Positions 4,958-63,200 of a stretch of DNA of 64,000 bases are shown here, piece by piece (the first letter of the stretch is position 1; each line of letters starts with the position of its first letter). Source of the DNA: a virus. The stretch is taken from IMG/VR virus record IMGVR_UViG_3300015171_000001, positions 1 to 64,000 of that record; one strand, 5' to 3'. The notes beneath the pieces are model-generated. The model did no database searches. It had not been told where the DNA came from and saw only the letters and a program-made list of their open reading frames with translations. A program made the translations under genes and the position numbers.

Positions 4958-7900
4958 ATGGCAAATAAACGAATTTCTGATTTAAACCCCCTATTAGCTT
5001 CTAGTGCAAGTATAAATGACTTAACAGTAGTGGTTGATGTTTTATCTGACACAACTCCTACTGGAGAAGATAAAAAGATGACTCTTGGAGAGTTATCTAA
5101 TTTCGTATTTGATACTGTTCCCCACGTTTCTTCTTCTAATCAATTAGATATTAATGAGTTACAAAATTATCCATTATCAGCAAGTCATGGTGGAACAGGT
5201 GTAACTTATATTCCCACATTTAGTGTTTTAGTTGGACAAGGAACTAGTTCAATAACATTTGCAACTGGAAACATTGGTAATTTATTAGGTTGGGGATTAA
5301 ATGGACCAACATTTGTTTCTGGAGTTATCAGTAGTTCTGCACAAGTTGATTATAATTATTTACAAAATAAACCACAGGGGGTAATATCATCAAGCGATCA
5401 ATTACCAAATGGGTTATATAGTAGTTCTGCACAGGTAAGTTTTCTTGGATTGTCAGATACCCCTAAAACATATGTTACAAATTCATTTATCAAAGTAAAT
5501 TCTTCTGGAAGTGGATTAGACTTTTTTTCATTACCAATTTCTGTTCAAGATTTACAAAAAGGAAAATCCTATGCTAATGGGGTTTATTATTTTAATGGAG
5601 ATATAAGAGAAAGATTATATGCGAACATTCAACCTCAGACAATTTATAGTGGCGGATTAGCAACATACTATCAAGATTTTTTACATTCTGGAAACGTCTG
5701 TTTAGATAAATTTAATAGAAATTTATATTTTGTTAGAGGAACTTGGCCAAGAAGAAAAGGATTAAATTCTTCTGATTATCATGGATTATCTTGGAGAGAA
5801 GCAAATAATACAATTGATTCTAGAGCAGAAGCTGTATGTTCCACAAGAGAAGATGGCCAAAATTTTCAAGTATTAGCAGATTTTTGGACATCAACAATAG
5901 GAGGTTCTTTACCAAATAGTGTTAAAAATTCTTCTGGTAAATATGTAGTTTCTGAACCATCTGCGGTAGCATTTGATAGTAGTTCAAATAGTATTTTCGT
6001 TGCTTGTAGAAATGATCATTGTCCATCAATAATATATAAAATGAATGCAACTGGGTCTCAATCAAGTATTGAGAATAGTACGCAAGTATGGGTCACATTA
6101 GCGAATGGAGATTTAAAAATTGATTGTGTTGAGGTTGGAGTTATTCCTAAAGGATTTTATTATCAAGGAGACGAATCTTTAAATCCATTAACAGATCCTC
6201 CTCAAAATACGCCTTATTTATTTTTCGGAGTGTCTCCAGACTGGAATACTCCTTATGCGTCTGGATCAACTTTAAAACATGCAGCTATTTATAAAGTTCC
6301 AACAAGTGGAACTGCACCAGGAACATTTTTAACAGATTATCCAGTTGCTTATACTCTTCACAGATTTTGGAGAGCAGGGACTGATGCAACAAATCCAGAC
6401 ATGGGAACTACTGGTGTAAAATCAATAAAATTATATATAGCTAGAGCGGGTCAAGATGGTGGAGAATGGAATCCATATTCAGATACACTTCCTTTTGTAA
6501 GAAAAGATAAAAGTAGATTGTTTGTTGTGCATTCTGGAGCACCAAGTCAACAATTGATTTCTCATATAACTGGAAGTACGACATTTTCTAGAAGAACAAT
6601 AACTTCTGCTAGTTTTTATCCAACAGTTCCACAGACACAACCTTCACAGACATCTCCATTAGTTTCTGGAAGTATGTGGTCTACTGCATCACAAACAGTA
6701 TATCCAATTTTAGTACCACAACCAGGACCAACAATTCCGGCACCACTAGCAAGTTTAATAACATCAACAAATCCATTTTTATTTAACAATAATCAATTTG
6801 GTGGACATGGAATTTTTGAATTATTAATTGGTAATACAGGAAGTATATTAGGAAATCCATACACTGGAAGTTTTAGTTCACAAATAGATTTAAATAGACC
6901 ATGGAAAACGTGGAGACAAGGATATGTTAGTGCTGTTAGTGGAACACTAGCTTTATACTTCTCAAATATATCCGATGACCCAGGGTCTCCTATTGGAGAA
7001 ACAGGTTCTAGTGCTCCAGGTGCTCCAAGAAATAGATCATTTGCAATAAATGATAGATTATTTTTATTAACTGCTCCTTCAGATTTTGTAAATTTTGATA
7101 GTACCTCTTCTTTTTTCACACAATCAAGAGGAATTGTTAAAATTGGTGATGTTTCTTGTGGTGTGAATCCTAATACCCCAAGATACTTTTTAAATGGAAC
7201 TTATACAGATCCTAATGAAGAAGGAAATGTAATGGTTATTCCCGTTTTAGCAAATTCTATTAATAATGAAAATACTGCTATAATGGATGGGGGTCAACAA
7301 GGTTTACAACAAATGACAATTGATCCATATGGTGAAACTGCTTATGTTGCCGATTTCTTTTTCTCAAGATACTATACAACATATTTAACATCTTCATATA
7401 ATAATGGAGCACAGGATACATATCCATACGCATCAACTCCAACTCCTGTGACAATTTATTCTCCAGCAGAAACTATTCCAACAAATAGTTCAGTTCCTTC
7501 TGGATATATAAATTATAATAATGGAAACAATTTAACTCCTAGTGAAATTGATTGGCCTACTGCGCCAATCTATCCAGGTGCTCCTACAGGACCATCAGCG
7601 GCATCTGCTGCTGGTTATACTGCTGAAGGATGGCCAAATGGTCCTACACAGGTAACATACTCAGGTCAAAACAATGCTCCTGTGCCAATTACTGCATCAA
7701 ATAATTATAGTGGTCCATTTGGAGCATATTACTTTACACCAACATATTATCCAAAAGCAACTTTTCCGCCAACACCAAACAATCCAAATCCCGCATTGCC
7801 AGGATATGGACAAGCCGCTTCTGGTAGTTATCCTGCTGGACCAGCACCATTAGATGCATACACAGATAATACATTTAATTCTATATATAGTGAATTTGGA

Positions 7901-8498: not shown

Positions 8499-11459
8499 AT
8501 GGCCAATTCCTACATAAATAATTTAAATGAATTAAGTGCAAGTCAAGCTGCTGTATATGATCTTGCAGTAGTGGTTGATGTTAATAGCAATGCTTCATTA
8601 ACTGGAGAAACGAAGAAAATGACATTCGGAGATCTTTCCGAATTTTTGTTAGCACAACATCCATATGTTAATGAAGAAAATTTAAGTATTAATGATGTTC
8701 CAAAATATCCATTGTCAGCAAGTCATGGTGGAACTGGATTAATATCTTTACCACTGGGAGTTTTAACTGGAAATGGAACAAGTTCATTAATTATTATTAG
8801 TGGGTCAAATGATCAATATTTAGGGTATTTTGGAACAATCAATTTTTATTCTGGATCATATATTACATCGTCTGGGACAAGTTCATACACTGCGTCATTT
8901 ACATCATCAGCAGTGACGTACAGCCTTCAATATTCACATTCTGCACACACATCATCAGCAGATTATAATTTCCCAGATATACAAAATATTCCGACATTTT
9001 TCAGCGAATCTAGTCAATTACCATCATTAATAAGCAGTTCACATCAAGTTAGTTTTAATTTATTGTCAGATGTTCAACACAATTACATATCAGAAAATGT
9101 TGTAGTAGTGAATAATAATGGAACTGGATTAACATATGTTACTTCTTCATTATTTACAAACGACGACACATATAAAAAAGCAAGTGCTGCTGGTGTATAT
9201 TATTTCAATGGGGATATAAGAGAAAAATTATATTCAAATACAAATCCATCGTCTTTATTTTCTGGTACAGATGCATCAATTTATGCACAGAACTTTTTAC
9301 ATTCAACAAATTTATTTCTAAATAAAAATTTAAGACAAATATACTTTACTAGAGGATGTTATCCTAGAAGAAGAGGTGTAGATGTAAATGATTATAAAGG
9401 ATGGACTTGGAGAGAAATGAATAACACAACATCTTCTCAAGCCGAAGCAGTATGTAGATCAAGAGAAGATGGGTATGAATTTATTACATTAGCTAATTTA
9501 TATACATCAAATATCGGAAATAGTTTGACCAATAGTACACAAGATAGTTTTGGAACATTTGTTGTGAGCGAACCTGTTGCTGTTGTATATCACGAACCAA
9601 CAGAAAAGATTTTTGTTGCATGTAGAAATGATCATAACTCTTCAATTATTTATAGAATGGATGCAACTGGGTCACAATCTGATATTGAAAACAGTTGGGA
9701 AGTGTGGGTTGAATTAATTGATGGGACATTAAAAATAGATTGTTTAGAATTAGGAACTATTCCTCAAAGTTTTTATAGTGCAAGTAATCCTTCTGTAAAT
9801 ACAGATTATTTATTTGTGGGTATTTCTCCAGATTGGAATAAAAATACAAATATAGATGTAAATTCAAATGCTGCTATTTTTAAATTTCCTGTAACTGGTT
9901 CTCCAATAGGAAAGTTAAATAATTTTTATCCAAGTGCATATACATTACATCGTTGGTGGGGAAGTTGTTATAACACCGAATTTCCAGATATGGGAAAAAG
10001 TGGAATAAAATCTTTAAAATTATTTGTTGCTAGATTAGATGATGAGGCTTCTGCGTGGGATTCTACAATAGATCCATCATTGGTAGACAAAAGCAATTCT
10101 CGATTGTACACAGTGCATTCTGGTGCGCCTAGTAGGGATGCTATATATACTGCATCAAGTGTTCCTGTTGGAACATATCAAGTAAATTATCCAACTGGTT
10201 CTGCAGTTACGGCAAGTGTATTTTATGATAATAATCAATTTGGTGGACATGGCGTTTTTGAATTATTAATTGGGGAAGTTCCTGATAATAATATCAGCGG
10301 TTCTTTTGATGGAACAAAAGATTTTAATAGACCATATAAAACATGGAGACTTGGAATATTAGAAACTGTTAATGGAAATCAAACTGGATTGAATATTGGT
10401 TATGATGATCCAGGATACCCAACAAATAATACTGGATCATCTGGAATAGGTACTGCAAGAGGAACCAATTTTCAGGTTCATGATAGATTATTCATTTCTA
10501 CATCACCAAATCAAATAGAAGATTTTAATGGAATAACTTATGTTGGACCGTCTGGTTGTAGAGGAACATGTGAAATTACTACGGCAAGTTGCGATCTTTA
10601 TACTGCAAGATATATTTTAAAAAATGGAGATGGTCAAACAGGTCTTGGATTTGTTATGGCAATTCCAGTATTAATGAATAGTGTAAATAATTTTTGTCAA
10701 TCCCCAATAACAATGGGACAACAAGGTTTACAACAAATGACAATTGATCCAGTAGAAGGGAAATTCTATGTTTCGGATTTTTATGCAAGTAATTATTATG
10801 CTACTTTCTCTGGATATACACCGTCACCAGTGTCATCAAGTTATACTGTTAAATTTTCAGAATTTGGAACAATTTATCAAGGAAATTTATGGCAATATTC
10901 TAGAGGAATTAATGGCCAAAGATTATTTGATGATGCCAATCCACAAATTGGATATTCAAAACCTTGTGGACTTACATCTTACAATGAAGGACCAGTTAGT
11001 GCTTCAAGATTAATTTATACAAATGGAGAAAATAATTTTCAATTATCATCTTCATTATTAACTGGCGGAAATACTGTAAATGGATTTAGTAGAACATTTA
11101 CACAAGATAACGTATTGGCACAAGGATTTAATGTATTGTCTATCTCAGATATTGGTCCTACTTATGATGCCGGTATTATTGTAAACTTTTCACAATCTAC
11201 AACCACAAGTGATTATTTGGTTTATGCTTATAATGATCTTGGTGGAAAATTTGGTTCTGGTCAATTACACGATTATGATATTGGATATTATTCTGGATCA
11301 ATTATAACATCATCCATATTACAAAATGCTGCATATTATTTTGGAAAGAACAGAAATCAATTTAGAATAACATACAATGGAGCACAATTTGCTTCTCAAA
11401 GTATGAATGTTTTATATTTTTCGGTATTTGGTGGAAATTATGATAATTTAATTTTTTAA
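8499..11459 (+). CDS. Tail fibre/receptor-binding-like virion protein, paralog B
   Basis: Shares GVYYFNGDIRE, FVACRNDH, NNQFGGHG.FELLIG, GQQGLQQMTIDP, NGFSRTFTQD and YFGKNR with 4958. Confidence 0.7.
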   Translation: MANSYINNLNELSASQAAVYDLAVVVDVNSNASLTGETKKMTFGDLSEFLLAQHPYVNEENLSINDVPKYPLSASHGGTGLISLPLGVLTGNGTSSLIIISGSNDQYLGYFGTINFYSGSYITSSGTSSYTASFTSSAVTYSLQYSHSAHTSSADYNFPDIQNIPTFFSESSQLPSLISSSHQVSFNLLSDVQHNYISENVVVVNNNGTGLTYVTSSLFTNDDTYKKASAAGVYYFNGDIREKLYSNTNPSSLFSGTDASIYAQNFLHSTNLFLNKNLRQIYFTRGCYPRRRGVDVNDYKGWTWREMNNTTSSQAEAVCRSREDGYEFITLANLYTSNIGNSLTNSTQDSFGTFVVSEPVAVVYHEPTEKIFVACRNDHNSSIIYRMDATGSQSDIENSWEVWVELIDGTLKIDCLELGTIPQSFYSASNPSVNTDYLFVGISPDWNKNTNIDVNSNAAIFKFPVTGSPIGKLNNFYPSAYTLHRWWGSCYNTEFPDMGKSGIKSLKLFVARLDDEASAWDSTIDPSLVDKSNSRLYTVHSGAPSRDAIYTASSVPVGTYQVNYPTGSAVTASVFYDNNQFGGHGVFELLIGEVPDNNISGSFDGTKDFNRPYKTWRLGILETVNGNQTGLNIGYDDPGYPTNNTGSSGIGTARGTNFQVHDRLFISTSPNQIEDFNGITYVGPSGCRGTCEITTASCDLYTARYILKNGDGQTGLGFVMAIPVLMNSVNNFCQSPITMGQQGLQQMTIDPVEGKFYVSDFYASNYYATFSGYTPSPVSSSYTVKFSEFGTIYQGNLWQYSRGINGQRLFDDANPQIGYSKPCGLTSYNEGPVSASRLIYTNGENNFQLSSSLLTGGNTVNGFSRTFTQDNVLAQGFNVLSISDIGPTYDAGIIVNFSQSTTTSDYLVYAYNDLGGKFGSGQLHDYDIGYYSGSIITSSILQNAAYYFGKNRNQFRITYNGAQFASQSMNVLYFSVFGGNYDNLIF

Positions 11460-11482: not shown

Positions 11483-11788
11483 ATGAATTCCTATAATTTA
11501 AAATGCGAAGATCTTAATATACAAAATTTTATATTAAATCTAAATGATGATACCACTTTTAATTTGAATATAAATTATGCAAGTGGATCTATAAATGAGC
11601 AGTACAGTGGTAGTTTTGTTAGTTCGGATGATATAAATTATACATTAAATTTTAATACAAATGCAAGTTCAAGTATGAATGATTATTTTTTAAAATTAAC
11701 TATTTCTGGTTCTTCTATTGAGAGTATGAAATATATAAATTCTACAAATATGGCATTTGATTCAAAAATGTATATATTTCATGAATGA
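11483..11788 (+). CDS. Small Asn/Ser-rich protein with three SGS motifs
   Basis: 101-aa ORF; TATTTAT-5-ATG; overlaps the start of the first radical SAM gene. Confidence 0.65.
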   Translation: MNSYNLKCEDLNIQNFILNLNDDTTFNLNINYASGSINEQYSGSFVSSDDINYTLNFNTNASSSMNDYFLKLTISGSSIESMKYINSTNMAFDSKMYIFHE

Positions 11789-12941
11789 GATAAATAAAGA
11801 TATATGTATTCTTCCTTGGCTTTCTTTATTCATTAGAAATGATGGGAATATATATCCATGCGAGATTTTAGCATGGAGATCAAATGATTATCTATTAGGA
11901 AATTTAGAAACAACTACGCTAGAGGAAGCGTTTAATCATCCGGCCATAAAAAAATTAAGAAAAACGGTTTTATTCACAGGAACATGTGAATTATCAAATT
12001 TTCATAAAAATTCTTGTATGTATCTTATAAATCACGAATTATATTCTGATATATATGATAAAATGTATTCTGATACGAGAGAGGATGGTTATTTTGAATT
12101 TAATTTACAAGCTTTATTTTTAAAATTATCTAATTTATGTAATTTAAAATGTGTTTATTGTAATGAACACAGTAGTAGTGTGTGGGAAAAATTTAAAAAC
12201 AAAAATATTAAAAAAATAGATCCAGATGTATATTTGTCAAAGTTATACCCACATTTAAACAATCTTAAAGAGTTGTTTTTTTCTGGAGGAGAACCCATAT
12301 TATATTCATATAATAAAACAATATTAGATTATTTAAAACAAAACAATAAAAATATACAAATAGGAATTGCCACAAATCTGACATATAATTTTGAAAAGTA
12401 TAAATCTTTTTTTGATATTTTAAGTGAGTTTTCTAATAGTAAAGTTTTTTGTAGTATTGATGTTGATCAAGAACAATTTGAATTCATTAGAGAAAATTCT
12501 GATTGGAATTTAGTGAAATATAATTTGGGAAAAATAAAAAATTACAAGAATATAAATGTGTATTTGAATTCGGTTATTTCTACTTTGAGTTCTTTTTATA
12601 TAATGGATTTTCATAAAAGAATGATTTTGGATGGATTATTAGAATGGGATTCAATTCGGTATATTTGTTTAGATAGTCACGAACATCTAAATATTCAAAA
12701 TATGAATTTTAGTAAAAAGAAAGAATTAGAAAATTATCTTTTATTATATTGTGATTTTTTAAAAGAATATGAAAAATCTAATCAAGTAAGAACATATATA
12801 AATAATAAATTTCCTTCGGAAGCAATATTAAAAATAATAGAATTTATGAATCAGATTCCTGCTGACGAAAATTTTATAAACATATTATCAGAAAAAGTTC
12901 CTATAGATATTATTACAAATATTTTTCCTAAATTGTTATGA
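11781..12941 (+). CDS. Radical SAM protein with N-terminal Twitch/SPASM domain
   Basis: CILPW...DGNIYPC; SNLCNLKCVYC (CxxxCxxC); FSGGEP. ATG 11781 preferred over TTG 11757. Confidence 0.9.
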   Translation: MNEINKDICILPWLSLFIRNDGNIYPCEILAWRSNDYLLGNLETTTLEEAFNHPAIKKLRKTVLFTGTCELSNFHKNSCMYLINHELYSDIYDKMYSDTREDGYFEFNLQALFLKLSNLCNLKCVYCNEHSSSVWEKFKNKNIKKIDPDVYLSKLYPHLNNLKELFFSGGEPILYSYNKTILDYLKQNNKNIQIGIATNLTYNFEKYKSFFDILSEFSNSKVFCSIDVDQEQFEFIRENSDWNLVKYNLGKIKNYKNINVYLNSVISTLSSFYIMDFHKRMILDGLLEWDSIRYICLDSHEHLNIQNMNFSKKKELENYLLLYCDFLKEYEKSNQVRTYINNKFPSEAILKIIEFMNQIPADENFINILSEKVPIDIITNIFPKLL

Positions 12942-14089
12942 ATTGCGTTTTGCCATTTTCTCATTTATACCATTTTACAGATGGAAGCACATATCCTTGT
13001 CCAAAATTAGTTTCTAATAAAAATTATATTCTTGGAAAAAATGAAGATTCTGTTGAAACTTTGTTTAATAATGAAATATTAAAAAAAATGAGGTTGCAAT
13101 TTATAAACAAAAATCCACCATCTGTTTGTATTGATCATTGTTTTAATTCTTTAAGTCCAACAAATAAATGTGTAAGAAGTAATACAGAAGAAAACATTGT
13201 TAATTTTTATAATAATGTTAATGAGAGTGGATTTTTAGATACAAAATTTTACACAATAAAGAATATACCAGAATCAAATATATGTAATTTAAAATGTGTA
13301 TATTGTGATGGTAATCATTCATCAAGACATAATAAAAACGAAATAATATTTTCTTTTCAAGATGATGGATTTCGAGAAAAATTTTTATACAATATAGAAA
13401 ATATAAAAGAATGTTGGTTTTCAAGTGGAGAAAGTTTTTTGCAACCAAATTATTTTTGGGCATTGATGGAATTAAAAAAAAGAAATTTAGAAAATGTAAA
13501 AGTATCTATAATAACAAATGGGACAATACTAAATGAGAAAACAAAATTGTTTTTAAGTGTTTTAAATTCTTTTAAAGATCCACATATATTATTTAGTGTA
13601 GATTCAATAGAAAAAAGATTTGAAATCATAAGACAAGGATCGAACTGGAATGATGTCTTAGAAAATATAAAATATATACGAGACAATTATAAAAACATAC
13701 GAATGATTTTTCAACCAGTAATATCAATATTAAACATATTACATTTAAAAGAATTACATTATTTTTTAATGACAGAAAATTTAATTAAAAGTATTGGAGA
13801 TGTTAGATTATATCATCTTAATGGTCCTTCATTTTTAAATATAAAAAATATTAAAAATAAAAAAATTATAAGACTGGCTTTTAATGATTAAATTAAATAT
13901 TTGAATACACATGATAATATGTATGATTATTTTTTTAATACAAAAAGTTTGATTAATAAATTAGATGACATTTATAATTTTATTAATACTTCAGAACAAA
14001 ATCAAAATGATATTATTAATTTAAAAAATTTTATTATTAATATTAACAATGAAGAATTGACAAAAGAAATAGAACTTTTATTAATATGA
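12938..14089 (+). pseudogene. Radical SAM Twitch/SPASM protein interrupted by one in-frame TAA (13889-13891) near its C-terminus
   Basis: CVLPF...DGSTYPC; SNICNLKCVYC; SSGES. ORFs 12938-13891 and 13901-14089 share a frame, joined by TAA-ATT-AAA-TAT. Confidence 0.65.
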
Positions 14090-15709: not shown

Positions 15710-16624
15710 ATGATCCATTTTTTATCCGAACATTATGTATGTAATTATACAGAAGAAAAAAACAACGAATATTCAAAATATTGTTTGGGAAAGACTACCC
15801 ATTCTGGATATTATTATTGGATTTTAAAAAATTTGGGAATAAAAAATATAAATTTATGTCTGGACTTATGTGAAATAAAGGAAGGTGATATTGTATTTTT
15901 TTATCACGAAAATTATGTTAATTCTCCAGAATATAAATTTAAGGATTTAGAATATATAAAAAATATAACAAAAATCCAAATTATGGGTGATACAGACAAA
16001 AATATTTGGGCAGATATTTATGCTATAAATGATTTAACATATGTTAATCAAAACGAAAATATATATTTTTTAAATTTTCCTTTGCCATCTAATATAAGAA
16101 AAATGAAAGCAAATTTCCCACCAATTACTTTTGGGACATGTTCTACTAGCTGGGGATTAGATACAAAATTTAAAAAGAAGAAATATATAGAAAAATTCAA
16201 AGAATTAAATATGAATATGATTTATGAATTTGAAACAAATTATATGAGAGAAAATATAGATGTATTTTTTTACTTAAGAAATAAACAATTGCATTTACAT
16301 TTTGATGATATGGGTGAACCAAAACATCCAGTTAGAGGATATAAACACGCTAATAGGCTATATCAATCATTTTACATGAATGTTCCTGCTATATTAAATC
16401 CAGAGTCTGCATTGATTAGTGTAAAGAAATCGGAATATGATTTCTTAGAATGTAATACTATTGACGATTTTATTGATAAATCCATTTTTCTTAAAAATAA
16501 TGAATTTTTCTTTAAAAATATGGTAGACAATTGTATAGCAAGATCCGAAGAACATTCTCATCAGGCAATAAAAAGTCAATTTGAAAAAATATTAAATACA
16601 ATATGTGCAGCTTTTCATTTATAA
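15710..16624 (+). CDS. Putative GT-B type glycosyltransferase
   Basis: C-terminal KHANRLYQSFYMNVPAILNPES resembles the GT-B donor-binding motif; context supports it. Confidence 0.5.
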   Translation: MIHFLSEHYVCNYTEEKNNEYSKYCLGKTTHSGYYYWILKNLGIKNINLCLDLCEIKEGDIVFFYHENYVNSPEYKFKDLEYIKNITKIQIMGDTDKNIWADIYAINDLTYVNQNENIYFLNFPLPSNIRKMKANFPPITFGTCSTSWGLDTKFKKKKYIEKFKELNMNMIYEFETNYMRENIDVFFYLRNKQLHLHFDDMGEPKHPVRGYKHANRLYQSFYMNVPAILNPESALISVKKSEYDFLECNTIDDFIDKSIFLKNNEFFFKNMVDNCIARSEEHSHQAIKSQFEKILNTICAAFHL

Positions 16625-20761: not shown

Positions 20762-20824
20762 ATTGATAACTATAAAATATTTTTTAAGATAATATATTTT
20801 AATATTTTTTTCATATTTAATAAT

Positions 20825-45371: not shown

Positions 45372-45871
45372 TGAAAAATTTTACAGATTATTTACAAGTT
45401 TTTGACAGTATAGAACTTCAAAATATTTTATCGAGTGGTTCTAGTGGATCTTATTTTACACCAGTGACAAATTCATTAGGTAAGATTTTATTAAATTATT
45501 CTCAATCTAGTGTCACGGGAAGTTGTATTTTTATTCCATTAATAAATTATACATACGATGAAACAAAAGCAATGTCTTTATATGGAATAACATCGAGTAT
45601 AACAAATATAACCTCGCAATCTATAAATAGTTCATCTGTAAGTACATCTGTAGATTTTAGATCTCTTTATTTACAAACATTAAATCAAAAAACAAATTTG
45701 GAAACTCAATTAAACACAATTGTCAGTCAAAGTATTGACACGAGTGCTTTGTCAGATGTGTCGGCAGCAAAATCAGTAATTGAGAATCTTAGAATACAAT
45801 TAAGTCAGGGTGTTTCTTCTTCAGATTTTTCTGATATATTTCCTTATTTACCAATCACGAATAATAGATAA
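45371..45871 (+). CDS. Hypothetical structural protein
   Basis: TAATG-coupled within the baseplate operon; Ser-rich. Confidence 0.7.
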   Translation: MKNFTDYLQVFDSIELQNILSSGSSGSYFTPVTNSLGKILLNYSQSSVTGSCIFIPLINYTYDETKAMSLYGITSSITNITSQSINSSSVSTSVDFRSLYLQTLNQKTNLETQLNTIVSQSIDTSALSDVSAAKSVIENLRIQLSQGVSSSDFSDIFPYLPITNNR

Positions 45872-50683: not shown

Positions 50684-51769
50684 ATGAGTACAAGCTTTAT
50701 TTTCAAAGATTTTCAATCCACAGATGTAGTTACTGGGAGAATACAAAGTGTGTCCAATCCATTGTGGACATCTGGAGATTTTGAATTAAATAATTTTTAT
50801 ACTTCTAGTATACAAACAATTATTACTGGCGCAAATGCATTAGAACCATTATCTGGTTTATATTATTTAAATGTATATGATTCCGATCCAAATATAGATC
50901 CAACAGCAGAGATTCAATTTTCTATTTCTTATGGGAATCAAGTCGGTTCTGGTAGTTTTTCTTCTGTAAATTCGGCATCAATTTATCCCACACAAACAAT
51001 TTATACACAGTATAAAAACATCATATTATCTCCAAATGAAAGTCAATTTACATTTGCAACCGCCAGTTTTAATAATGGAATTGCATCTCAAGATATTTAT
51101 GTGATAAGTATTTCTGGAAATAGATATAAAGAAAATTTTGATGCTGGTCAGTTCCAATTTGCTTTATATGGAAATAATGGAATTTCATATTTCATCGACG
51201 ATTCCTCTCAATCTACTCAAAATGGAGTATCTACAAATAATGTATTTAATATTGTTTCTGGAACATTAGACGATGGAATTTATCTACAAAATGGAAGTTC
51301 TAGCTTATATGCCGGATTGGTGTATCCAACAATTGGAACTATTATTTTATATCCAAAGGCTTTGGGTGATATTGTTGGATCAAATTTATATCCAAATACA
51401 AGTTCAAATGCAACACAATTAAATCAATATAGATTATTTTCAGCAATTTCGAATGTATTTTCAACAAATTCCGGCTCATTTATCGCAAGATCAACCGAAT
51501 ATATTCCATCTGAACAATATTTTATAAGAGCGGGAAATCAAGAATTTAATTATAGCAATAATCCAACATTTGTGTTGTCAAATCAAACAAATCAATCATT
51601 AAATGGGCAATTATTGTTTACTAGTTTTTATACAGATCCACATACATATGTGACTACTGTTGGATTATATGATGCAAATAATGACTTGGTTGCAGTCGCT
51701 AAATTAAGTCAGCCTATTGAAAAAACTTTTGAGAATGAATTATTAATAAAGGTAAAATTAAACTTTTGA
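50684..51769 (+). CDS. Baseplate/tail-collar structural protein
   Basis: C-terminal EFNYSNNP...YVTTVGLYD.NNDLVAVAKLSQP, shared with 52302. Confidence 0.65.
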   Translation: MSTSFIFKDFQSTDVVTGRIQSVSNPLWTSGDFELNNFYTSSIQTIITGANALEPLSGLYYLNVYDSDPNIDPTAEIQFSISYGNQVGSGSFSSVNSASIYPTQTIYTQYKNIILSPNESQFTFATASFNNGIASQDIYVISISGNRYKENFDAGQFQFALYGNNGISYFIDDSSQSTQNGVSTNNVFNIVSGTLDDGIYLQNGSSSLYAGLVYPTIGTIILYPKALGDIVGSNLYPNTSSNATQLNQYRLFSAISNVFSTNSGSFIARSTEYIPSEQYFIRAGNQEFNYSNNPTFVLSNQTNQSLNGQLLFTSFYTDPHTYVTTVGLYDANNDLVAVAKLSQPIEKTFENELLIKVKLNF

Positions 51770-52170: not shown

Positions 52171-52302
52171 ATGATTAAGCCTATAAAGCAATCCAATATA
52201 ACTGTAAATCAATTTAAAGTATTTAAAAATTGGCACATTTATACAATTCCAAATACGTTATATACCGGATCATTATTAGTTAATACAACCAATAGTAATT
52301 AA
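52171..52302 (+). CDS. 43-aa ORF, probably the detached N-terminus of the next gene
   Basis: MIKPIKQSNITVNQFKVFKNWHIYTIPNTLYTGSLLVNTTNSN*; TAATG overlap with 52302. Confidence 0.55.
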   Translation: MIKPIKQSNITVNQFKVFKNWHIYTIPNTLYTGSLLVNTTNSN

Positions 52303-55300
52303 TGTCTCCGAATATACCACAATTTGTTTATATAGATTCTAGAGATGTAACACAAGATGTAAAAATTCTTGAGGGGATTTCTGGTTCTGGAACATTTTTT
52401 GAAACAATAGATAAGAGATATAATTCATTAAAGAATCCAATTAATTGGGACAACTCTTATAAACGGATTATTTATAGTACATACAAACATATGTTTTATG
52501 AATATATAAATCAACCCGATTATCTATTTGGAGTTGAAAGAGATAATGATGGGCCTGATGGACAATTTGAAGTAAGAAATATAAATGATAGAATTACTGT
52601 TTTAAAACTTCCTCAACCATTATTTGGAGAAACTATTGTCCCAAATACTGTTAAAATAAATGATAGATCAAATTTAAGTACAGAATTAAATATTACAGAT
52701 GATGGATATAGTAATTTAATATTTTCGACACAAAGTATTATTACTACAGGATCTTTTGTTGGAAATAATTTTAACAATATTGAGGAAATTAATGCCGAAA
52801 TAAATCCAGAAATTTATTTAGACCCGCAATATAGAAAATATGATCCAGTGAATGAAAGATATGGATATGCCGTTTCTTCTTGGGATAATTACTTATTAGT
52901 TGGGTCTCCTATGGACACAAATAGTTTTTGTAGTTCTAAAACAGGAAAGGCCGATTTATTAAAATTTGATATAATTGAACAACAATATAGATACATAAAA
53001 ACATTTTATAATATCTATACACAAAATGGATTTGCAACAGAAGAATCTAGTGATGGATCTGAATTATTCATAAATGAATTTGGAGAATTTTTAACAGAAA
53101 ACACATCATCTGTAAATGATAGATTTGGCCAATCAGTATCAATAAATGAATCATTTTCAGCTATTGGATCTTTAGAAAATTGTGGGTGTAATTTTAATGA
53201 TCAATGCGGAGCGGTATTCATTTATGATAAATATAAAGGAGGGGCTGATAATTGGGGATTAATTAATTTATATGTTGGAGAATCAATTGGGGATCAATTT
53301 GGATATTCAGTATCTATTACTGATGATTGGTTGGCGGTGGGTGCTCCATATTTTAGTGGGTCTGGGGCAGTGTATATTTTCAAAAAGGAAATTATTGGAC
53401 AAACAATACCAACAAGTTCTATAACAAGAACATTTCAAAATGAACTTTATAGTATAATAAATTGTCCACCAACACTAATCGACGAAATTACTGATGAAGA
53501 TTTAATAGACGAATTACAATATACAGGTCCATCAGGATCTATTAATGATAACAGTTATCAATTTTATCAAAGAATTCCATCTCCAAATAATTTATCAAAT
53601 GATTGTTTTGGAGGAAGTTTGCAATTAAGTGGAAGTATTTTAGTTGTTGGAAATTGTAAAATTAATCCAACTGGAGATGTCAAACTTTTCCATTTAAATC
53701 AACTAGGAACCGGCTCATATTATGGAACCGGATCATGGGATTTATTTCAATCCATAACAGGATCAATTACACAAACAGGAAATGTTAATTTCTTTAGTTC
53801 ATCAATTGTTCCAGTAACACACTCGCTACAATATTTTGGAAATGCGGTTTGTCTAAATAATAATTTATTATTCATAGGTTCTCCTAGTGACAAATGGTAT
53901 TATGAATATCAAGGAGCAACAACATTATATAAATCTGGCGCAGTTTATATTTATCAATATAATTTATCATCCTCGTATAATTTTGTTGATAAAATATTTG
54001 CAAATGAAATAGATTCAAGAACAGATGAATTTGGTTGTTCAATAGATTCTAAAAATAATTTAGTGGCAATTGGAGCGTTAATAGGAGATCAAATAATTTC
54101 GGCATCATATGTGCCAACATCTTCTGGAACAGGATCTTTTATTATACAACACTACCAAGATTATGCTCAAAGTATAGACGATATTAACCATGTTAATGGA
54201 AAGGCATATTTTTATGAAATACAGACTTTTCTTGGAAATTATTCAGAATTAATTCCACTACAAAATGTTAAAGAAAATAAATTATATGCTGCTCCAAAAC
54301 GACAATATGGGTGGAGCGTAGCTGTTTCGGATAATGGTTATGCTTTTATCGGAGATCCTTTATTTTCCTATCAAAATCCAACAAGTTCTGCTTTTTATGA
54401 TCAAAACATATTAAGAAATAATTATCCATATTTTTATTCTGGGTCTGTATTCGCATATAATCTAAACTCATTAACCGGATCAATAAATTCCAATATTTTA
54501 GGAAATGTTTTTTATAAAAATGGAATTATAACCATAACAGCAACTGGATCGAATATAAATAATACAATAAATCCCGCACAAAGTAGATTTGGATTTGATA
54601 TTGAATATGTTTCTCAGCACACTATAAATGAATACGAAATTATTTGTCCCGTAGAAATTGGAGAATTTAATGTATCTACAAATCCATCATCAGTTATTAG
54701 ATCTAGAATTTTATTTGACGTAAATAACGATGGGGTATTTGATGAAAAAGATTTAGATTTAATTTTAAGATTCATAAATAAATTAATTCAATATAATTCA
54801 CAAACATTAAATAATTCTAGTTTTGAAGATGAAAATGGATTTATATTGGAACAATCAGAAGATTGGTGGAATCCATCGGTATTAATTACGGAAAATATCG
54901 ATGTTATATATGTTAATTCTATTTTACAATCCTTGCCTTCACAAGAAGATTTTATTATTGATTCGGAGATTAATCAATCCACATATGATTATTTGATATT
55001 TTTATTTAATTCTGGATATTTGGATTTAAATGGAGACAATACGGTTAATTCTAAAGATATGGCTATATTGATTAATTATTTTTATTCCAATTTTGATTTT
55101 AAAGGAATTAGAAATAATATAGGATCTTTAAAAAATGCGACTACTATTATTACCAATTTAAATCAATATACTGGTAAAAATAATGGGATTTATATAGATG
55201 GGAATTTTTTAAATTATGCAGAATCGGCATCTATAGACAAAACCGGAAGTTATTTGGCTCCATATGTTACGACAGTTGGCTTATATTCAAACTACGAATT

Positions 55301-55382
55301 GGTTGCAGTGGCTAAATTGGCCAAGCCTTATAAAATAACTTCGGAATTTCCAATAAATTTTCGTATTACTTTTGATTTTTAA
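52302..55382 (+). CDS. Virion protein with FG-GAP beta-propeller and dockerin-like Ca-binding motifs
   Basis: Repeats such as DQFGYSVSITDDWLAVGAPY; DVNNDGVFDEKD and DLNGDNTVNSKD; C-terminal YVTTVGLY...LVAVAKL. Confidence 0.75.
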   Translation: MSPNIPQFVYIDSRDVTQDVKILEGISGSGTFFETIDKRYNSLKNPINWDNSYKRIIYSTYKHMFYEYINQPDYLFGVERDNDGPDGQFEVRNINDRITVLKLPQPLFGETIVPNTVKINDRSNLSTELNITDDGYSNLIFSTQSIITTGSFVGNNFNNIEEINAEINPEIYLDPQYRKYDPVNERYGYAVSSWDNYLLVGSPMDTNSFCSSKTGKADLLKFDIIEQQYRYIKTFYNIYTQNGFATEESSDGSELFINEFGEFLTENTSSVNDRFGQSVSINESFSAIGSLENCGCNFNDQCGAVFIYDKYKGGADNWGLINLYVGESIGDQFGYSVSITDDWLAVGAPYFSGSGAVYIFKKEIIGQTIPTSSITRTFQNELYSIINCPPTLIDEITDEDLIDELQYTGPSGSINDNSYQFYQRIPSPNNLSNDCFGGSLQLSGSILVVGNCKINPTGDVKLFHLNQLGTGSYYGTGSWDLFQSITGSITQTGNVNFFSSSIVPVTHSLQYFGNAVCLNNNLLFIGSPSDKWYYEYQGATTLYKSGAVYIYQYNLSSSYNFVDKIFANEIDSRTDEFGCSIDSKNNLVAIGALIGDQIISASYVPTSSGTGSFIIQHYQDYAQSIDDINHVNGKAYFYEIQTFLGNYSELIPLQNVKENKLYAAPKRQYGWSVAVSDNGYAFIGDPLFSYQNPTSSAFYDQNILRNNYPYFYSGSVFAYNLNSLTGSINSNILGNVFYKNGIITITATGSNINNTINPAQSRFGFDIEYVSQHTINEYEIICPVEIGEFNVSTNPSSVIRSRILFDVNNDGVFDEKDLDLILRFINKLIQYNSQTLNNSSFEDENGFILEQSEDWWNPSVLITENIDVIYVNSILQSLPSQEDFIIDSEINQSTYDYLIFLFNSGYLDLNGDNTVNSKDMAILINYFYSNFDFKGIRNNIGSLKNATTIITNLNQYTGKNNGIYIDGNFLNYAESASIDKTGSYLAPYVTTVGLYSNYELVAVAKLAKPYKITSEFPINFRITFDF

Positions 55383-60368: not shown

Positions 60369-63200
60369 ATGCCTACTGATTTAAGAACTATAACTGCCGA
60401 TATTGTTGATACCGGAACAAATTCCAATTATTTTATTGTTGGAGAATTATCTAACACACTTACTTCTGGAAAAAATGCACTGACATTAAACGGATCTAAT
60501 TTATTATTACCTACTAGTAATATTTATTTTCAGGTATATGATTCCTCTGGAAATTTGTTATATACAGAAATCGCCAGGGGGAGTTCGAATATAAATTATA
60601 GGGAAGGGGTATCTATAATTATTTCTATTTGGGTAGATGATTCTACTGCAATTGGTACTGGAAAATTAATAATTGTTGGGCAAGACACAAATTCTAAAAT
60701 AGTAAAATGGACAAAAAATGTAAATATTAATCCATACCAAATAAATTCCTCAAAAATAAGATTTTATAATACTCCATCGATAGAAGTTGACCCATATCTA
60801 TCAGAAATTATAGTTTTTGATTCATTTTCAGACAATTTTAATTCTGGAACATCTAATACAAAGGCAATTGTTCCAAAACAAAATTTTCCATATTTTTCCT
60901 TCGATTACTTAAGAAACACAATAGATTATAGAGTGTATAATACATCAGGAAATCCATTCGATTCCTTCATGGAAGGTAATGTGATGAATTTCACAAATAT
61001 TAATGGAACTACAGCATCATTCTCTTCTAATGTATTGGAAGTCATTTCTGACTCGGAATTGAAAATAGAATTTCCATATCTAGAAAATAATATAGTAAAA
61101 AGTATAAGTTCATCAAATTGGAATATTTCTTATATACCATACGAAGAATTAAATTCACCACAATTTGTGGAAAAAGAATTGTCGGGGTCTATATTCACAT
61201 ATAAACAATCAGTAGCATATGTGTATTTCAAAAATATAAATACATTCACCGGAAATGTATATAGATTTAAATTATATAGAAAAGGATTAAATTCTAATTT
61301 TGATAGTGAATGTATAGCAGATGACTTAATTACTACAAAAGAAATATTAATAGATGATACTACACCAAATAGATCTTTAGAAAATATCGGGTATTTTTAT
61401 GAAACAGACCATATACAAAAATATTGGTTTACTAGTAGTAATGTATCATATTCATATACTACATTCCCTCTTATTGATAGCATGTTTATTGAAAATTCAT
61501 ACACAGGATCATCTAATATTTTTTCAAGACCATATATTTTATCAAAAGATGATACCACAACAGATTTCAGAAACTCTACATATATTCCTTATGATGCAAC
61601 GCAATCTTCTGCTTTATCTGGAAGTGCATATGATAGTAATTTTTTGAGAATATTTAATGGTGTCGAGTATGTCTTAACAGCAAATATTATTGCAACAAAT
61701 TCGGGAAGTTTTTCTACAGATAATGGAATTTTAGATTTTTATCTAACTGGATCTTTATTAAATAATTCCGTATCTAATCAATATGATGGTTATGGTGTAA
61801 AATTAATGTCAGTAATAGTCCCGAGTGGAACAGGAACAAAATACTTATATCAAGTAAGTAGTTCATTTACATTAAATGAAGATGTAAATTGTGCGCTGGT
61901 TTTATCTCCATATAATGCAAGCTTTTATGTTTCTAAAATATCAATACAACCAAAAGAAAGTTTTTCTTTTTCTCCTCAAATATTTTATATAAAAGTTCCA
62001 TTTCCTATAGATACAAGAAATTCTAGATATGTAATTTCTGCTGAATTGTTTGATGTGAATAGTGACCACGTTCCTATAACATTAGAAACTACTCAAAATT
62101 TTGACCCTCTTGGGGAATCATTATTTATGCCATCGGCAAGTATATCAGAATCTCCTAATTATGTAGTAAATGCAACAAATGCTAGTTTTCAAAGTTTAAC
62201 AGTATATCCAGGATTAACAAATTTATCTAATTTAATTGTTCAAAATATTACTGCAAATGGACAAGTCACATTTAATAATCAAGTCTATATTCCAGGAGGA
62301 AATGCATTATTTACATCAAGTTGGGCCAATAATTCTATAAATTCAATTTCTTCATCATATAGTAGTGTTTCATCTTACACATTAAATTCAATTTCTTCAT
62401 CATATGCATCAAGTTCTACTTTTTCAAATACCGCATCATTTTTATTAGGAACAATTGCATCTGCATCATATGCCACAACGTCTTCTTATTCTAATAATAC
62501 AATTTCATCATCATTTGCATCTAATTCAAATTTTTCAAATACAGCATCTTATGCTTTAAATTCTGGCATTAGCATAATTGCTAGGTCATTCACTTCATCT
62601 GTTACTTATATACCAACTACAGGGACGCGTTATGCTATTATAGAGGGCGTTGGTGGTGGTGGTGGGTCAGCAGGATCTCCTTCTACAAATTCAACAACAA
62701 TAGTAGTCGGTGGTGGTGCTGGAGGAGGTGCTTATTTTAGAAAAGTAGCAACCTCTGCAGAATTAATTTCTGGAGCAGTTATAGTTATTGGAAATGCTGG
62801 ATCGCCAGGTTCTAGTGGAGGCGGTGTGGGTGGTAATGGAGGAAATACAGTTATTACATACAGTTCTGTCACTCTTACAGCGGGAGGTGGGCAAGGTGGT
62901 AGTTATAACAGCATTTCGGTAAACTGGGCTGCAATAGCAGGAAGTCAAGGAGGAGTTGCTACTGGCGGAGATGATAATTTTTCTGGAGGAGTTGGTGGAA
63001 CTGGTGCTGGATATGGAAATCAAGATTCTGGATACGGTGGAAATGGAGGAAGTAGTTTCTTTAGTGGTGGTTCTACAAGCGCAGAACCTGGAAATGGGTA
63101 TGGATCTGGTGCTGGTGGATTATTTATTGGGGTTAGTGGTGCAGCCACTCCTGGACTTATTGGGGGCATTGGTTATGTACGAATTACCGAATTCTTATAA
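60369..63200 (+). CDS. Tail-fibre-like virion protein with Ser-rich repeats and Gly-rich C-terminal domain
   Basis: SISSSYA/TASYA repeats, then FTSSVTYIPTTGT..AIIEGVGGGGG...GYGSGAGG...GYVRITEF. Confidence 0.75.
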   Translation: MPTDLRTITADIVDTGTNSNYFIVGELSNTLTSGKNALTLNGSNLLLPTSNIYFQVYDSSGNLLYTEIARGSSNINYREGVSIIISIWVDDSTAIGTGKLIIVGQDTNSKIVKWTKNVNINPYQINSSKIRFYNTPSIEVDPYLSEIIVFDSFSDNFNSGTSNTKAIVPKQNFPYFSFDYLRNTIDYRVYNTSGNPFDSFMEGNVMNFTNINGTTASFSSNVLEVISDSELKIEFPYLENNIVKSISSSNWNISYIPYEELNSPQFVEKELSGSIFTYKQSVAYVYFKNINTFTGNVYRFKLYRKGLNSNFDSECIADDLITTKEILIDDTTPNRSLENIGYFYETDHIQKYWFTSSNVSYSYTTFPLIDSMFIENSYTGSSNIFSRPYILSKDDTTTDFRNSTYIPYDATQSSALSGSAYDSNFLRIFNGVEYVLTANIIATNSGSFSTDNGILDFYLTGSLLNNSVSNQYDGYGVKLMSVIVPSGTGTKYLYQVSSSFTLNEDVNCALVLSPYNASFYVSKISIQPKESFSFSPQIFYIKVPFPIDTRNSRYVISAELFDVNSDHVPITLETTQNFDPLGESLFMPSASISESPNYVVNATNASFQSLTVYPGLTNLSNLIVQNITANGQVTFNNQVYIPGGNALFTSSWANNSINSISSSYSSVSSYTLNSISSSYASSSTFSNTASFLLGTIASASYATTSSYSNNTISSSFASNSNFSNTASYALNSGISIIARSFTSSVTYIPTTGTRYAIIEGVGGGGGSAGSPSTNSTTIVVGGGAGGGAYFRKVATSAELISGAVIVIGNAGSPGSSGGGVGGNGGNTVITYSSVTLTAGGGQGGSYNSISVNWAAIAGSQGGVATGGDDNFSGGVGGTGAGYGNQDSGYGGNGGSSFFSGGSTSAEPGNGYGSGAGGLFIGVSGAATPGLIGGIGYVRITEFL

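What the first reader, a model, noticed from the sequence alone, without database searches (positions are those of the whole stretch)
4958..63200. Candidate virion-protein decoration system: an [S/T]-[G/A]-S motif in peripheral virion proteins, next to a glycosylation/radical SAM island
Seen: SGS/TGS/SAS/TAS recurs densely in the fibre and outer-baseplate proteins (4958, 8499, 11483, 27049, 44211, 45371, 45871, 50684, 52302, 60369). By hand I count about 15 in 52302, 8 in 45871 and 3 in the 101-aa 11483 protein. I found none in the 1068-aa Mre11-Rad50 fusion, primase, PhoH, spike or gp25, and only one in gp6. The motif occurs inside unrelated folds (FG-GAP, LamG, DNRLRE, PKD), so it is not just one repeat family. 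Inference: it is an acceptor sequon for O-glycosylation or another Ser modification written by the enzymes at 11.8-26 kb, giving a modified virion surface.
Basis: partly seen in the sequence, partly recalled or inferred. Interest (0 to 1): 0.85.

Follow-up and report, generated by a model that had tools for sequence, protein, structure and literature searches.

The report
Ser/Thr-Gly-Ser tag on virion proteins
The outer particle proteins of this uncultured AT-rich T4-like phage and its relatives carry the tripeptide Ser/Thr-Gly/Ala-Ser three to eight times too often; the excess is real, but it follows a conserved pair of sugar-transferase genes found in relatives, not the enzyme island next door, and no chemistry yet shows that anything is attached.

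Summary
Observation confirmed. [ST][GA]S is 3-8x over-represented in about 15-20 virion proteins. In the window without the repeat fibre it is 83 observed vs 19.5 expected; genome-wide 350 vs 111. The excess survives local and dipeptide-preserving shuffles, is order-specific ([ST][GA]T, N[GA]S about 1x) and has mixed codons. About 40% of copies lie in fibre repeats ((T-G-S-F)n, [ST]ASYA); the remainder is still 2.9x enriched.

The trait is shared by Flavobacterium phage immuto, Microcystis phage Mel-JY01, Rhodothermus phage RM378 and 80 IMG/VR relatives. It is absent from T4, T5, phage K and P-SSM2.

The island is real (three N-twitch radical SAMs, GT2, GT8, DXD-GT, AsnB-like, carbamoyltransferase, 2OG oxygenase) and conserved in one sister contig. 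No other motif-positive relative has it, so it is not the determinant.

A clade-specific adjacent pair of GT4-type glycosyltransferases tracks the motif better: pair present and motif-positive in 4 of 4 complete genomes; the one clade member lacking the second GT (LR756508) has no excess. This contig lacks the pair but is truncated where synteny predicts it.

Best reading (about 0.4): acceptor tag for that pair, with the island a possible glycan-tailoring add-on. Structural-only reading: about 0.33.

This scan reported the same motif on other phage DNA (about 97 genomes).

The parts
4958..8476 (+). 1172-aa fibre-like protein, paralog of 8499; 16 motifs vs 4.1 expected
   Evidence: C-terminus 59% identical to the ORF preceding the island in sister contig L189. 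No Pfam or PHROG family.
8499..11459 (+). 986-aa fibre-like paralog; 16 motifs vs 3.4 expected
11483..11788 (+). 101-aa protein at the head of the island; 3 motifs vs 0.19 expected. Conserved at the same place in L189 (40% identity).
   Evidence: TATTTATA-type word directly upstream
11757..12941 (+). N-terminal-twitch radical SAM protein 1
   Evidence: NF033640 at 196 bits (cut-off 170); Pfam Radical_SAM + SPASM
12938..13891 (+). N-terminal-twitch radical SAM protein 2
   Evidence: NF033640 at 181 bits; 67% identical homolog P0095 in L189
14915..15676 (-). GT2-family glycosyltransferase
   Evidence: PF00535, E=1.8e-6
16603..17904 (+). AsnB-like glutamine amidotransferase
   Evidence: PF00733, PF13537; TIGR01536 below cut-off
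17870..18703 (+). GT8-family glycosyltransferase
   Evidence: PF01501, E=5.7e-21; nearest solved structures are GlyE 5gvv, the Skp1 alpha-GalT and glycogenin
19499..20902 (-). N-terminal-twitch radical SAM protein 3
   Evidence: NF033640 at 172 bits
21346..22155 (+). DXD-motif glycosyltransferase (Gly_transf_sug)
   Evidence: PF04488, E=1.8e-8
23096..24583 (-). NodU-type carbamoyltransferase
   Evidence: PF16861 E=4.8e-52, PF02543
25434..26054 (+). 2OG-Fe(II) oxygenase (P4H-like)
   Evidence: PF13640, E=6.8e-13
27049..28467 (-). 472-aa fibre with (T-G-S-F/H/Y)n period-4 tandems and TASYA repeats; 40 motifs vs 8 expected. Paralog of the 1397-aa fibre at genome 97589.
29639..31553 (-). IS607-like pair (serine recombinase plus probable TnpB). 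A homologous pair abuts the island in L189.
44211..45371 (+). 386-aa outer-baseplate protein downstream of gp6; 5 motifs vs 0.6 expected. Orthologs in immuto and Mel-JY01 are also enriched, but only 1 of 12 motif columns is shared.
45371..45871 (+). 166-aa protein; 3 motifs vs 0.58 expected (weak)
45871..49986 (+). 1371-aa baseplate/fibre protein; 9 motifs vs 2.2 expected
50684..51769 (+). 361-aa protein conserved across the clade; 4 motifs vs 1.2 expected (weak)
52302..55382 (+). 1026-aa FG-GAP/dockerin protein; 15 mostly isolated motifs vs 1.8 expected
60369..63200 (+). 943-aa tail fibre (C-terminus matches phrog_863); 10 motifs vs 5.5 expected. Marginal, and no excess once the ASY repeats are removed.

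Best explanation
[ST]-G-S (with [ST]-A-S as a local extension) is a clade-wide tag on the outward-facing parts of virion proteins: capsid and sheath insertions, adaptor, outer baseplate and fibres. It is kept by selection acting through a trans-acting factor rather than by the needs of any one fold.

The best candidate factor is an adjacent pair of soluble GT-B/GT4-type glycosyltransferases. GTa is about 480 aa. GTb is about 436 aa and has an intact E-x7-E catalytic signature. The pair is specific to this clade and would O-glycosylate the tag's serine in the cytoplasm during assembly.

The pair is not on this truncated contig. By synteny it is predicted about 5-7 kb past the contig's right end.

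The 11.7-26 kb island is not the writer. It is a lineage-specific, probably mobile sugar-tailoring cassette that sits next to a fibre gene. It may elaborate the glycan, or it may act on another target.

Shown here: the enrichment, its specificity and its distribution; the absence of the island in motif-positive relatives; and the association with the GT pair. Inferred: that the pair acts on proteins, that Ser is the acceptor, that this genome has the pair, and any role of the island.
For: 1. The enrichment is order-specific, virion-restricted and seen at the protein level. The non-repeat residue is still 2.9x enriched in about 15 proteins with no detectable mutual similarity.

2. It is a clade trait. 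Genome-wide ratios are 2.0-2.2 in immuto, Mel-JY01 and RM378, with 7-12 enriched ORFs each. The 80 IMG/VR loci give 1526 vs 550. T4 is 0.78, T5 1.07, phage K 1.43 and P-SSM2 1.23, with none or one enriched ORF.

3. Sites turn over while density is kept: 1 of 12, 2 of 28 and 3 of 27 motif columns are shared between orthologs. In 24 MCP orthologs all 117 copies lie in the variable insertion, and five columns are semi-conserved.

4. The fold does not need the motif. LR756508's MCP insertion aligns well but has D, R, A or P at those columns, which also implies that these positions are solvent-exposed.

5. The GT pair. GTa occurs in only 7 of 50,697 phage records, and all 7 are clade members. GTa and GTb are adjacent in 80 of 80 IMG/VR loci. 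GTb keeps KGEGFGRPLLEF in 73 of 77 copies. The pair is present in all four complete motif-positive genomes: immuto, Mel-JY01, G003, and RM378 with a divergent GTb. LR756508 has GTa only and shows no excess: 204 vs 152 across 621 ORFs, none enriched.

6. The contig is truncated. Its right-end genes are the ones found within 10 kb of the pair in relatives, and they are syntenic with Mel-JY01 just upstream of that phage's pair.

7. A DNA-sugar role for the pair is less likely. No thymidylate-synthase/hydroxymethylase homolog occurs in Mel-JY01, RM378 or G003, and no TET/JBP hit in any.

8. Phage-encoded virion glycosylation has precedent in mycobacteriophages (Freeman et al. 2023, as cited in PMC11256854).
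Against: No chemical evidence exists for any modification.

The association between pair and motif rests on about two evolutionary events: the origin of the clade and the loss of GTb in LR756508. It is therefore heavily confounded by phylogeny.

RM378's GTb is only a weak profile match (hhalign P=1.3e-4, probability 54%), and it lacks the second Glu of the E-x7-E signature.

The pair is not on this contig; its presence in this genome is an inference from synteny.

The pair sits among replication and nuclease genes, and no late-type promoter word precedes it.

Neither GT matches GtfA/GtfB or any known protein O-GT by sequence. The only PDB hit for GTa is chlorovirus B736L at E=0.0016.

Forty per cent of the copies lie in clearly structural tandem repeats, and T-A-S is near-invariant inside a widespread fibre module.

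Related tripeptides show a graded excess in the IMG/VR set (SGS 3.6 > TGS 2.5 > SGT 2.1 > TGT 1.5 > SGN 1.3). That looks more like a structural propensity than an all-or-none sequon.
Confidence: 0.4

Rival explanations
1. Structural motif only. Hydroxyl-tiny-hydroxyl is a building element of the beta-rich decoration and fibre modules that this clade uses: the exposed Ser/Thr face of amphipathic strands, Gly-Ser hairpin turns, and (T-G-S-F)n and [ST]ASYA fibre repeats. Nothing is attached. The link with the GT pair is shared ancestry.
For: 140 of 350 copies are in tandem or fibre repeats. T-A-S is at least 90% conserved in 75 copies of a widespread fibre module whose mean column identity is 23%.

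The flanks are hydrophobic at -1 and +3 and depleted of charge.

In the MCP model the motifs sit in a strand, at strand ends or in a turn of an all-beta insertion (that region has pLDDT 55-79).

SGT, TGT and SGN show a graded excess.

LR756508's sheath is about 165 aa shorter, so it partly lacks the motif-rich module.
Against: T4, T5, phage K and P-SSM2 have large beta-rich fibres, sheaths and baseplates with no excess.

The same MCP insertion fold exists without the motif, and without the Gly, in LR756508.

The motif is present in about 15 proteins with no detectable mutual similarity, and it is missing from all of them at once in LR756508. That points to a common external cause.

Position 3 is strictly Ser in this genome ([ST][GA]T 1.1x).
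Confidence: 0.33
2. One reading: the island's own enzymes (GT2, GT8, DXD-GT and/or the radical SAMs) recognise [ST][GA]S and write the modification.
For: The island is real and lies among fibre genes. The arrangement fibre, 11483 homolog, then island is conserved in sister contig L189. The GT8 is closest to GT8s that build protein-linked glycans: GlyE, the Skp1 GalT and glycogenin.
Against: The whole island is absent from immuto, Mel-JY01 and RM378, and no homolog lies in the 80 IMG/VR loci (+-10 kb around the adaptor gene). All of these are motif-positive.

No close viral relatives of the rSAM were found beyond L189.

The rSAMs fall far below the cut-offs of every peptide-maturase equivalog.

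An IS607-like element flanks the island in both genomes, which suggests recent and mobile acquisition.
Confidence: 0.06
3. The motif is a surface-chemistry or adhesion feature read by no enzyme: uncharged, hydroxyl-rich patches selected for binding host or environmental polysaccharide, or for colloidal behaviour in water. Both the GT pair and the island act on other targets, such as host envelope glycans, DNA or a small molecule.
For: Motif-positive virion proteins are also richer in Ser, Thr and Gly and poorer in charge than their LR756508 orthologs: expected counts are 3.5 vs 1.05 for the sheath and charged residues are depleted around the motif.

Phage glycan clusters are common without any known virion role. 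P-SSM2 has GT2 genes and no motif excess.
Against: Composition alone does not explain the ordered, directional tripeptide, as the local and dipeptide-preserving shuffles show. No reader or ligand is known.
Confidence: 0.12

Closest known systems
Mycobacteriophage virion glycosylation by phage-encoded glycosyltransferases (Freeman et al. 2023, Cell Host Microbe; known here only through its citation in PMC11256854)
   Same: Phage-encoded GTs are proposed or shown to attach glycans to capsid and tail proteins in the cytoplasm, giving a glycan coat on a tailed phage.
   Different: No chemistry exists here. The host phyla and phage lineage differ. Here a short ordered tripeptide is scattered over about 15-20 virion proteins. 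Whether the mycobacteriophage sites follow a motif could not be checked, because the paper is not held. The candidate GTs showed no detected homology to characterised protein GTs.
GtfA/GtfB O-GlcNAc system of streptococcal and staphylococcal serine-rich-repeat adhesins, with GT8/GT2 'Gly' elongating enzymes such as GlyE (PDB 5GVV; PMC10709319)
   Same: Two adjacent paralogous GT-B genes. Ser-small-Ser acceptor repeats. Follow-on GT8 and GT2 enzymes; the island's GT8 has GlyE as its best solved match.
   Different: GTa and GTb do not match GtfA or GtfB by sequence. Both partners may be catalytic: GTb keeps E-x7-E. The substrates are folded virion proteins, not one secreted adhesin. There is no accessory Sec system. 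The GtfA/B biology is recalled from memory, not tested here.
Chlorovirus capsid glycosylation enzymes (e.g. NY-2A B736L, PDB 3oy2; PMC4691112)
   Same: Virus-encoded soluble GT-B enzyme implicated in the capsid glycan. It is the only solved structure that GTa matches.
   Different: The match is weak (E=0.0016). The chlorovirus glycans are N-linked at atypical sites on one capsid protein of a eukaryotic virus.
Flavobacterium phage vB_FspM_immuto (Immutovirus) and Microcystis phage Mel-JY01
   Same: Nearest cultured relatives (MCP 52% and 51% identical). They share the baseplate, head and tail gene set and the motif excess.
   Different: They carry GTa/GTb plus their own sugar cluster and lack the whole island of this window.

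Membership tests
NCBIfam NF033640, N-terminal twitch-domain radical SAM | Full-length match above the curated cut-off of 170 bits, with the twitch/SPASM-like Cys domain N-terminal to the radical SAM core | tested here: met
   196, 181 and 172 bits for 11757, 12938 and 19499(-). The Pfam SPASM hit lies at residues 3-69 or 60-123, ahead of the Radical_SAM hit.
RiPP/peptide-modifying SPASM radical SAM maturases (sactisynthases, ranthipeptide, cyclophane, anaerobic sulfatase maturase) | Score above the equivalog cut-off of a peptide-maturase model | tested here: not met
   Best scores are 18-54 bits against cut-offs of 300-720 bits.
CAZy GT8 / Pfam PF01501 | Domain match above the gathering score | tested here: met
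   17870-18703: 75.7 bits vs 24.3.
Phage virion glycosylation system (mycobacteriophage type) | Phage-encoded glycosyltransferase genes | tested here: met
   GT2, GT8 and a DXD-GT in the window; GTa/GTb in relatives.
Phage virion glycosylation system (mycobacteriophage type) | Glycan covalently attached to capsid or tail proteins | not testable with these tools
   Needs mass spectrometry or glycan staining of virions.
   The island is absent from three complete motif-positive genomes, and no homolog lies in 80 motif-positive IMG/VR loci (+-10 kb around the adaptor gene).
GtfA/GtfB-type two-component protein O-glycosyltransferase | Two adjacent paralogous GT-B genes in the same genome as the Ser-rich substrates | tested here: inconclusive
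   Adjacent in 80 of 80 relatives and present in 4 of 4 complete motif-positive genomes. Not found on this truncated contig.
GtfA/GtfB-type two-component protein O-glycosyltransferase | Sequence homology to GtfA/GtfB | tested here: not met
   phmmer against all PDB chains: GTa hits only B736L, and GTb hits nothing.
Phage DNA hypermodification (glycosylated hydroxymethyl-pyrimidine) cluster | Hydroxymethylase (thymidylate-synthase family) or TET/JBP dioxygenase that makes the acceptor base | tested here: not met
   PF00303 occurs only in immuto and is absent from this contig, Mel-JY01, RM378 and G003. PF12851 is absent from all, but the control set was silent, so that result is weak. The window's oxygenase is PF13640, not Tet_JBP.

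The most novel reading that the evidence does not exclude
A large clade of aquatic T4-like phages, with hosts in Bacteroidota, Cyanobacteria and Rhodothermota, coats its virions through a sequon-based O-glycosylation system. A conserved GTa/GTb pair starts sugar chains on [ST]-G-S tags scattered over all outward-facing virion proteins. Lineage-variable, mobile tailoring cassettes then diversify the glycan, much as O-antigen loci do. This window's island, with three N-twitch radical SAMs, GT8, GT2, carbamoyltransferase and amidotransferase, would be one such cassette.
Probability: 0.3. Interest if true: 0.85.

Novelty: new variant of a known kind. Interest (0 to 1): 0.6.

Why it matters
If the tag is a glycosylation site, it would be the first short sequon for phage virion glycosylation. 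It would be usable to predict glycan-coated phages from sequence alone. It would also imply that a very abundant group of aquatic phages, with hundreds to thousands of IMG/VR contigs, carries a sugar coat affecting adsorption, grazing, aggregation and immune or defence recognition.

It would give a first substrate context for an uncharacterised radical SAM family (NF033640).

Two cultured members exist (immuto on Flavobacterium sp. LMO8, and Mel-JY01 on Microcystis), so the question can be tested directly with virion mass spectrometry.

If the motif is purely structural, it is still a useful clade-specific signature of exposed decoration modules, and a warning against reading short Ser-rich motifs as sequons.

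Tried and rejected
- **DNA-word explanation:** rejected, because codons inside the motif are mixed.
- **Pure composition or local low complexity:** rejected by block and dipeptide-preserving shuffles.
- **One repeat family:** rejected. Only four paralog pairs were found by BLAST, and the residual excess remains after masking the repeats.
- **Generic property of phage fibres:** rejected by T4, T5, phage K and P-SSM2.
- **GTa alone as the correlate:** rejected. LR756508 has GTa and no motif excess.
- **Phyletic-profile search for a writer:** no family is shared by immuto, Mel-JY01 and RM378 yet absent from LR756508 at phmmer 1e-4. GTb escaped this search because RM378's copy is too divergent.
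- **Pfam on clade-conserved unknown ORFs:** no modifying enzyme found.
- **MCP fold:** poor overall (mean pLDDT 44); only the insertion was usable.
- **Fold of the 89445 module:** the globular half is confident, but the repeat half that bears the motifs was not modelled. Burial or exposure could not be measured, because the tool returns no coordinates.
- **Sheath-insertion profile search:** only about 13 broad-coverage homologs, too few to fold.
- **Extending the contig or finding close relatives of its end gene:** nothing found.
- **Viral relatives of the island rSAM in IMG/VR:** none by pattern scan.
- **Two papers on phage GT clusters that glycosylate DNA:** they mention no radical SAM, carbamoyltransferase or AsnB-like enzymes.
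TATTTA[TA] does not precede the GT pair in immuto, Mel-JY01 or RM378, and the word is too common to be informative.
- **Freeman et al. 2023:** could not be read.
Full report
**What the window is.** The window is the first 64 kb of a 157,280-bp IMG/VR contig with 27.8% GC. CheckV rates it about 67% complete, it has no terminal repeats, and genes run off its ends. It encodes a T4-like myovirus: gp25 and gp6 homologs at 41.9-44.2 kb, and major head protein, adaptor, sheath and tube further on. No deposited phage matches at the DNA level. By MCP identity the nearest relatives are Flavobacterium phage immuto (52%), Microcystis phage Mel-JY01 (51%), the uncultured 484-kb phage LR756508 (51%) and Rhodothermus phage RM378 (37%).

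The excess is weaker in 45371, 50684, 51776 and 60369.
- The excess survives shuffling within 10- or 20-residue blocks. In the large proteins it also survives dipeptide-preserving shuffles.
- Even without the repeat fibre 27049, TGS, SGS, TAS and SAS are four of the seven most over-represented tripeptides. The class is directional: [ST][GA]S 4.25x (z=14.8), against 1.1x for [ST][GA]T and 0.8x for N[GA]S and [ST][GA]N.
- Codons are mixed, so this is not a DNA word.
- Genome-wide there are 350 copies against 111 expected. Thirteen ORFs are individually significant, including the adaptor and sheath; the MCP shows 5 vs 1.5.

**Not one repeat family, but partly repeats.** Of the 350 copies, 95 are period-4 (x-G-S-x)n tandems, mostly T-G-S-F/Y/H in fibres 27049 and 97589. 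Another 45 are [ST]-A-S-Y/F fibre repeats. With both classes masked, the remainder is still 2.9x enriched (184 vs 63) across about 15 proteins. BLAST shows only four paralog pairs among the carriers. In the decoration-like protein at 89445, T-A-S is at least 90% conserved across 75 diverse copies of a widespread module made of fibre repeats plus a small beta-sandwich. Some copies are therefore plainly structural.

**A clade trait, not a general fibre property.**
- immuto, Mel-JY01 and RM378 show genome-wide ratios of 2.0-2.2, with 7-12 enriched ORFs each.
- Eighty IMG/VR relatives anchored on the adaptor gene (27-46% GC) give 1526 vs 550, with a median per-locus ratio of 2.9.
- T4 (0.78), T5 (1.07), Staphylococcus phage K (1.43) and P-SSM2 (1.23) show nothing in their sheaths, baseplates or fibres.
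- SGS and TGS form the clade-wide core. SAS/TAS and the aromatic residue at +1 are strong mainly in this genome and in immuto.

**Behaviour in evolution.** Between orthologs at 35-50% identity, motif positions are rarely shared (1 of 12, 2 of 28, 3 of 27 columns), yet the density is kept. In 24 MCP orthologs each protein has 4-7 copies. All 117 lie in the variable insertion (mean column identity 0.43, against 0.86 for the core), and five columns are semi-conserved. In the MCP model that insertion is the most confident part and is all-beta. The motifs sit in a strand, at strand ends or in a turn (low confidence overall).

**The island is real but is not the determinant.**
- The 11.7-26 kb stretch encodes three NF033640 N-terminal-twitch radical SAM paralogs, GT2, GT8, a DXD-GT, an AsnB-like amidotransferase, a NodU-like carbamoyltransferase, a P4H-like 2OG oxygenase and six unknown ORFs.
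- A sister contig (L189, Logan) has the same cassette at 46-73% identity. There too it follows a 4958/8499-type fibre and an 11483 homolog, and it ends at an IS607-like recombinase/TnpB pair like the one at 29.6-31.6 kb here.
- No island ORF has a homolog in immuto, Mel-JY01 or RM378, nor in the 80 IMG/VR loci, which cover only +-10 kb around the adaptor gene. All of these are motif-positive.

**A better-correlated candidate.**
- immuto and Mel-JY01 each carry a multi-GT cluster. Three proteins of those clusters are orthologous between the two phages.
- Two of these are GT-B/GT4-type enzymes: GTa (480 aa) and GTb (436 aa).
- GTa occurs in only seven of 50,697 phage records, exactly immuto (four records), Mel-JY01, LR756508 and RM378. 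GTb occurs only in immuto and Mel-JY01.
- In IMG/VR the two genes are adjacent in 80 of 80 loci, and a GT2 accompanies them in 66.
- GTb keeps a canonical E-x7-E block in 73 of 77 copies.
- The complete 369-kb relative G003 is motif-positive (ratio 3.06) and has both genes.
- RM378 has, directly after GTa, a 425-aa ORF that aligns end to end with GTb (hhalign P=1.3e-4).
- LR756508 has GTa only, and the ORF that follows it is unrelated to GTb. It shows no excess: 204 vs 152 over 621 ORFs, none enriched; sheath 1 vs 1.05; adaptor 0; MCP 1.
- Its MCP insertion aligns with the others but has D, R, A or P at the motif columns. The fold therefore does not need the motif, and those positions are probably exposed.

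| Genome | GTa | GTb | Motif excess |
|---|---|---|---|
| immuto | yes | yes | yes |
| Mel-JY01 | yes (split into two ORFs) | yes | yes |
| G003 (complete, 369 kb) | yes | yes | yes |
| RM378 | yes | divergent candidate | yes |
| LR756508 | yes | no | no |
| T4, T5, phage K, P-SSM2 | no | no | no |
| This contig (truncated) | not found | not found | yes |

This amounts to about two evolutionary events, so the association is suggestive, not proven.

**This genome and the pair.** Neither GT is on the contig. However, the only genes of this genome found within 10 kb of the pair in relatives are those at its right end (151-156 kb), plus 36504. That block is syntenic with Mel-JY01 73-77.5 kb, and Mel-JY01's pair starts at 83.4 kb. 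The pair is therefore predicted just past the truncation. This is an inference.

**What the pair might do.** It lies among replication and nuclease genes, so DNA glycosylation is a rival reading. But thymidylate-synthase/hydroxymethylase homologs are missing from Mel-JY01, RM378 and G003, and no TET/JBP hit was found (the latter had a silent control). GTa's only solved match is chlorovirus B736L (E=0.0016; PMC4691112), and GTb has none. The island's GT8 is nearest to GlyE (5GVV; PMC10709319), the Skp1 alpha-GalT and glycogenin. These are weak leads towards protein-linked glycans.

**Weighing.** For a trans-acting cause:
- ordered specificity of the tripeptide;
- restriction to virion proteins;
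- exposed, fold-dispensable positions;
- presence together in many proteins with no detectable mutual similarity, and absence from all of them in the one clade member lacking GTb.

For a purely structural cause:
- the large share of copies in repeats;
- T-A-S near-invariant in a widespread module;
- hydrophobic flanks;
- a graded excess of SGT, TGT and SGN.

I put an acceptor tag for the GT pair at about 0.40, a structural-only motif at about 0.33, an enzyme-free surface feature at about 0.12, and the island as writer at about 0.06. The rest is unassigned.

**Relation to earlier notes.** This scan has flagged the same tripeptide in about 97 other phage genomes, and earlier follow-ups also name a conserved GT pair. 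I had found GTa and GTb independently before reading those notes. The notes prompted the specific test of GTb in LR756508 and RM378. A lead about a late promoter in front of the pair was not borne out here.

Noticed in passing
window 29639-31553 (-) and L189 16920-18040: An IS607-like pair (MerR-HTH serine recombinase plus a 440-aa probable TnpB) lies 3.6 kb from the island here. In the sister contig a homologous pair (39-45% identity) directly abuts the island, which suggests the cassette moves with, or next to, a mobile element.
   Followed up: partly
G003 (IMG/VR relative) 211641-218478; loci L158, L159: GTa and GTb of this complete 369-kb relative are 880- and 886-aa ORFs. Each carries an in-frame insertion of about 380-390 aa at equivalent positions (near residues 308 and 293). 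The insertions look intein-like.
   Followed up: no
Mel-JY01 83441-84932 (L022 3441-4932): GTa is split into two ORFs of 190 and 302 aa in this cultured phage. This could be a frameshift, a sequencing error or a genuine split.
   Followed up: no
window 11757-12941, 12938-13891, 19499-20902(-): Three paralogous radical SAM proteins have the twitch/SPASM-like domain at the N-terminus (NF033640). I know of no characterised member of this family. They sit among sugar-tailoring genes rather than next to a precursor peptide.
   Followed up: partly
window 52302-55382: The 1026-aa virion-module protein combines FG-GAP repeats with a dockerin-type Ca-binding repeat. Its last 70 residues resemble the C-terminus of 50684.
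   Followed up: partly
genome 114697-115950 (L003 10697-11950): A 417-aa ORF rich in Ser, Thr and Gly (2.3 motifs expected) has none. It is a useful internal negative control, but its function was not determined.
   Followed up: no
P-SSM2 (NC_006883) 18953-20746: This is the only motif-enriched ORF in that outgroup cyanophage (20 vs 5.3 expected). It may be a fibre with similar repeats.
   Followed up: no
window 26375-38840: In immuto the HD-phosphohydrolase homolog lies directly upstream of the baseplate block. Here about 11.8 kb intervenes, holding fibre 27049, the IS607-like pair, a phosphatase and a deformylase. Like the island, this stretch is an accessory, non-syntenic region.
   Followed up: partly
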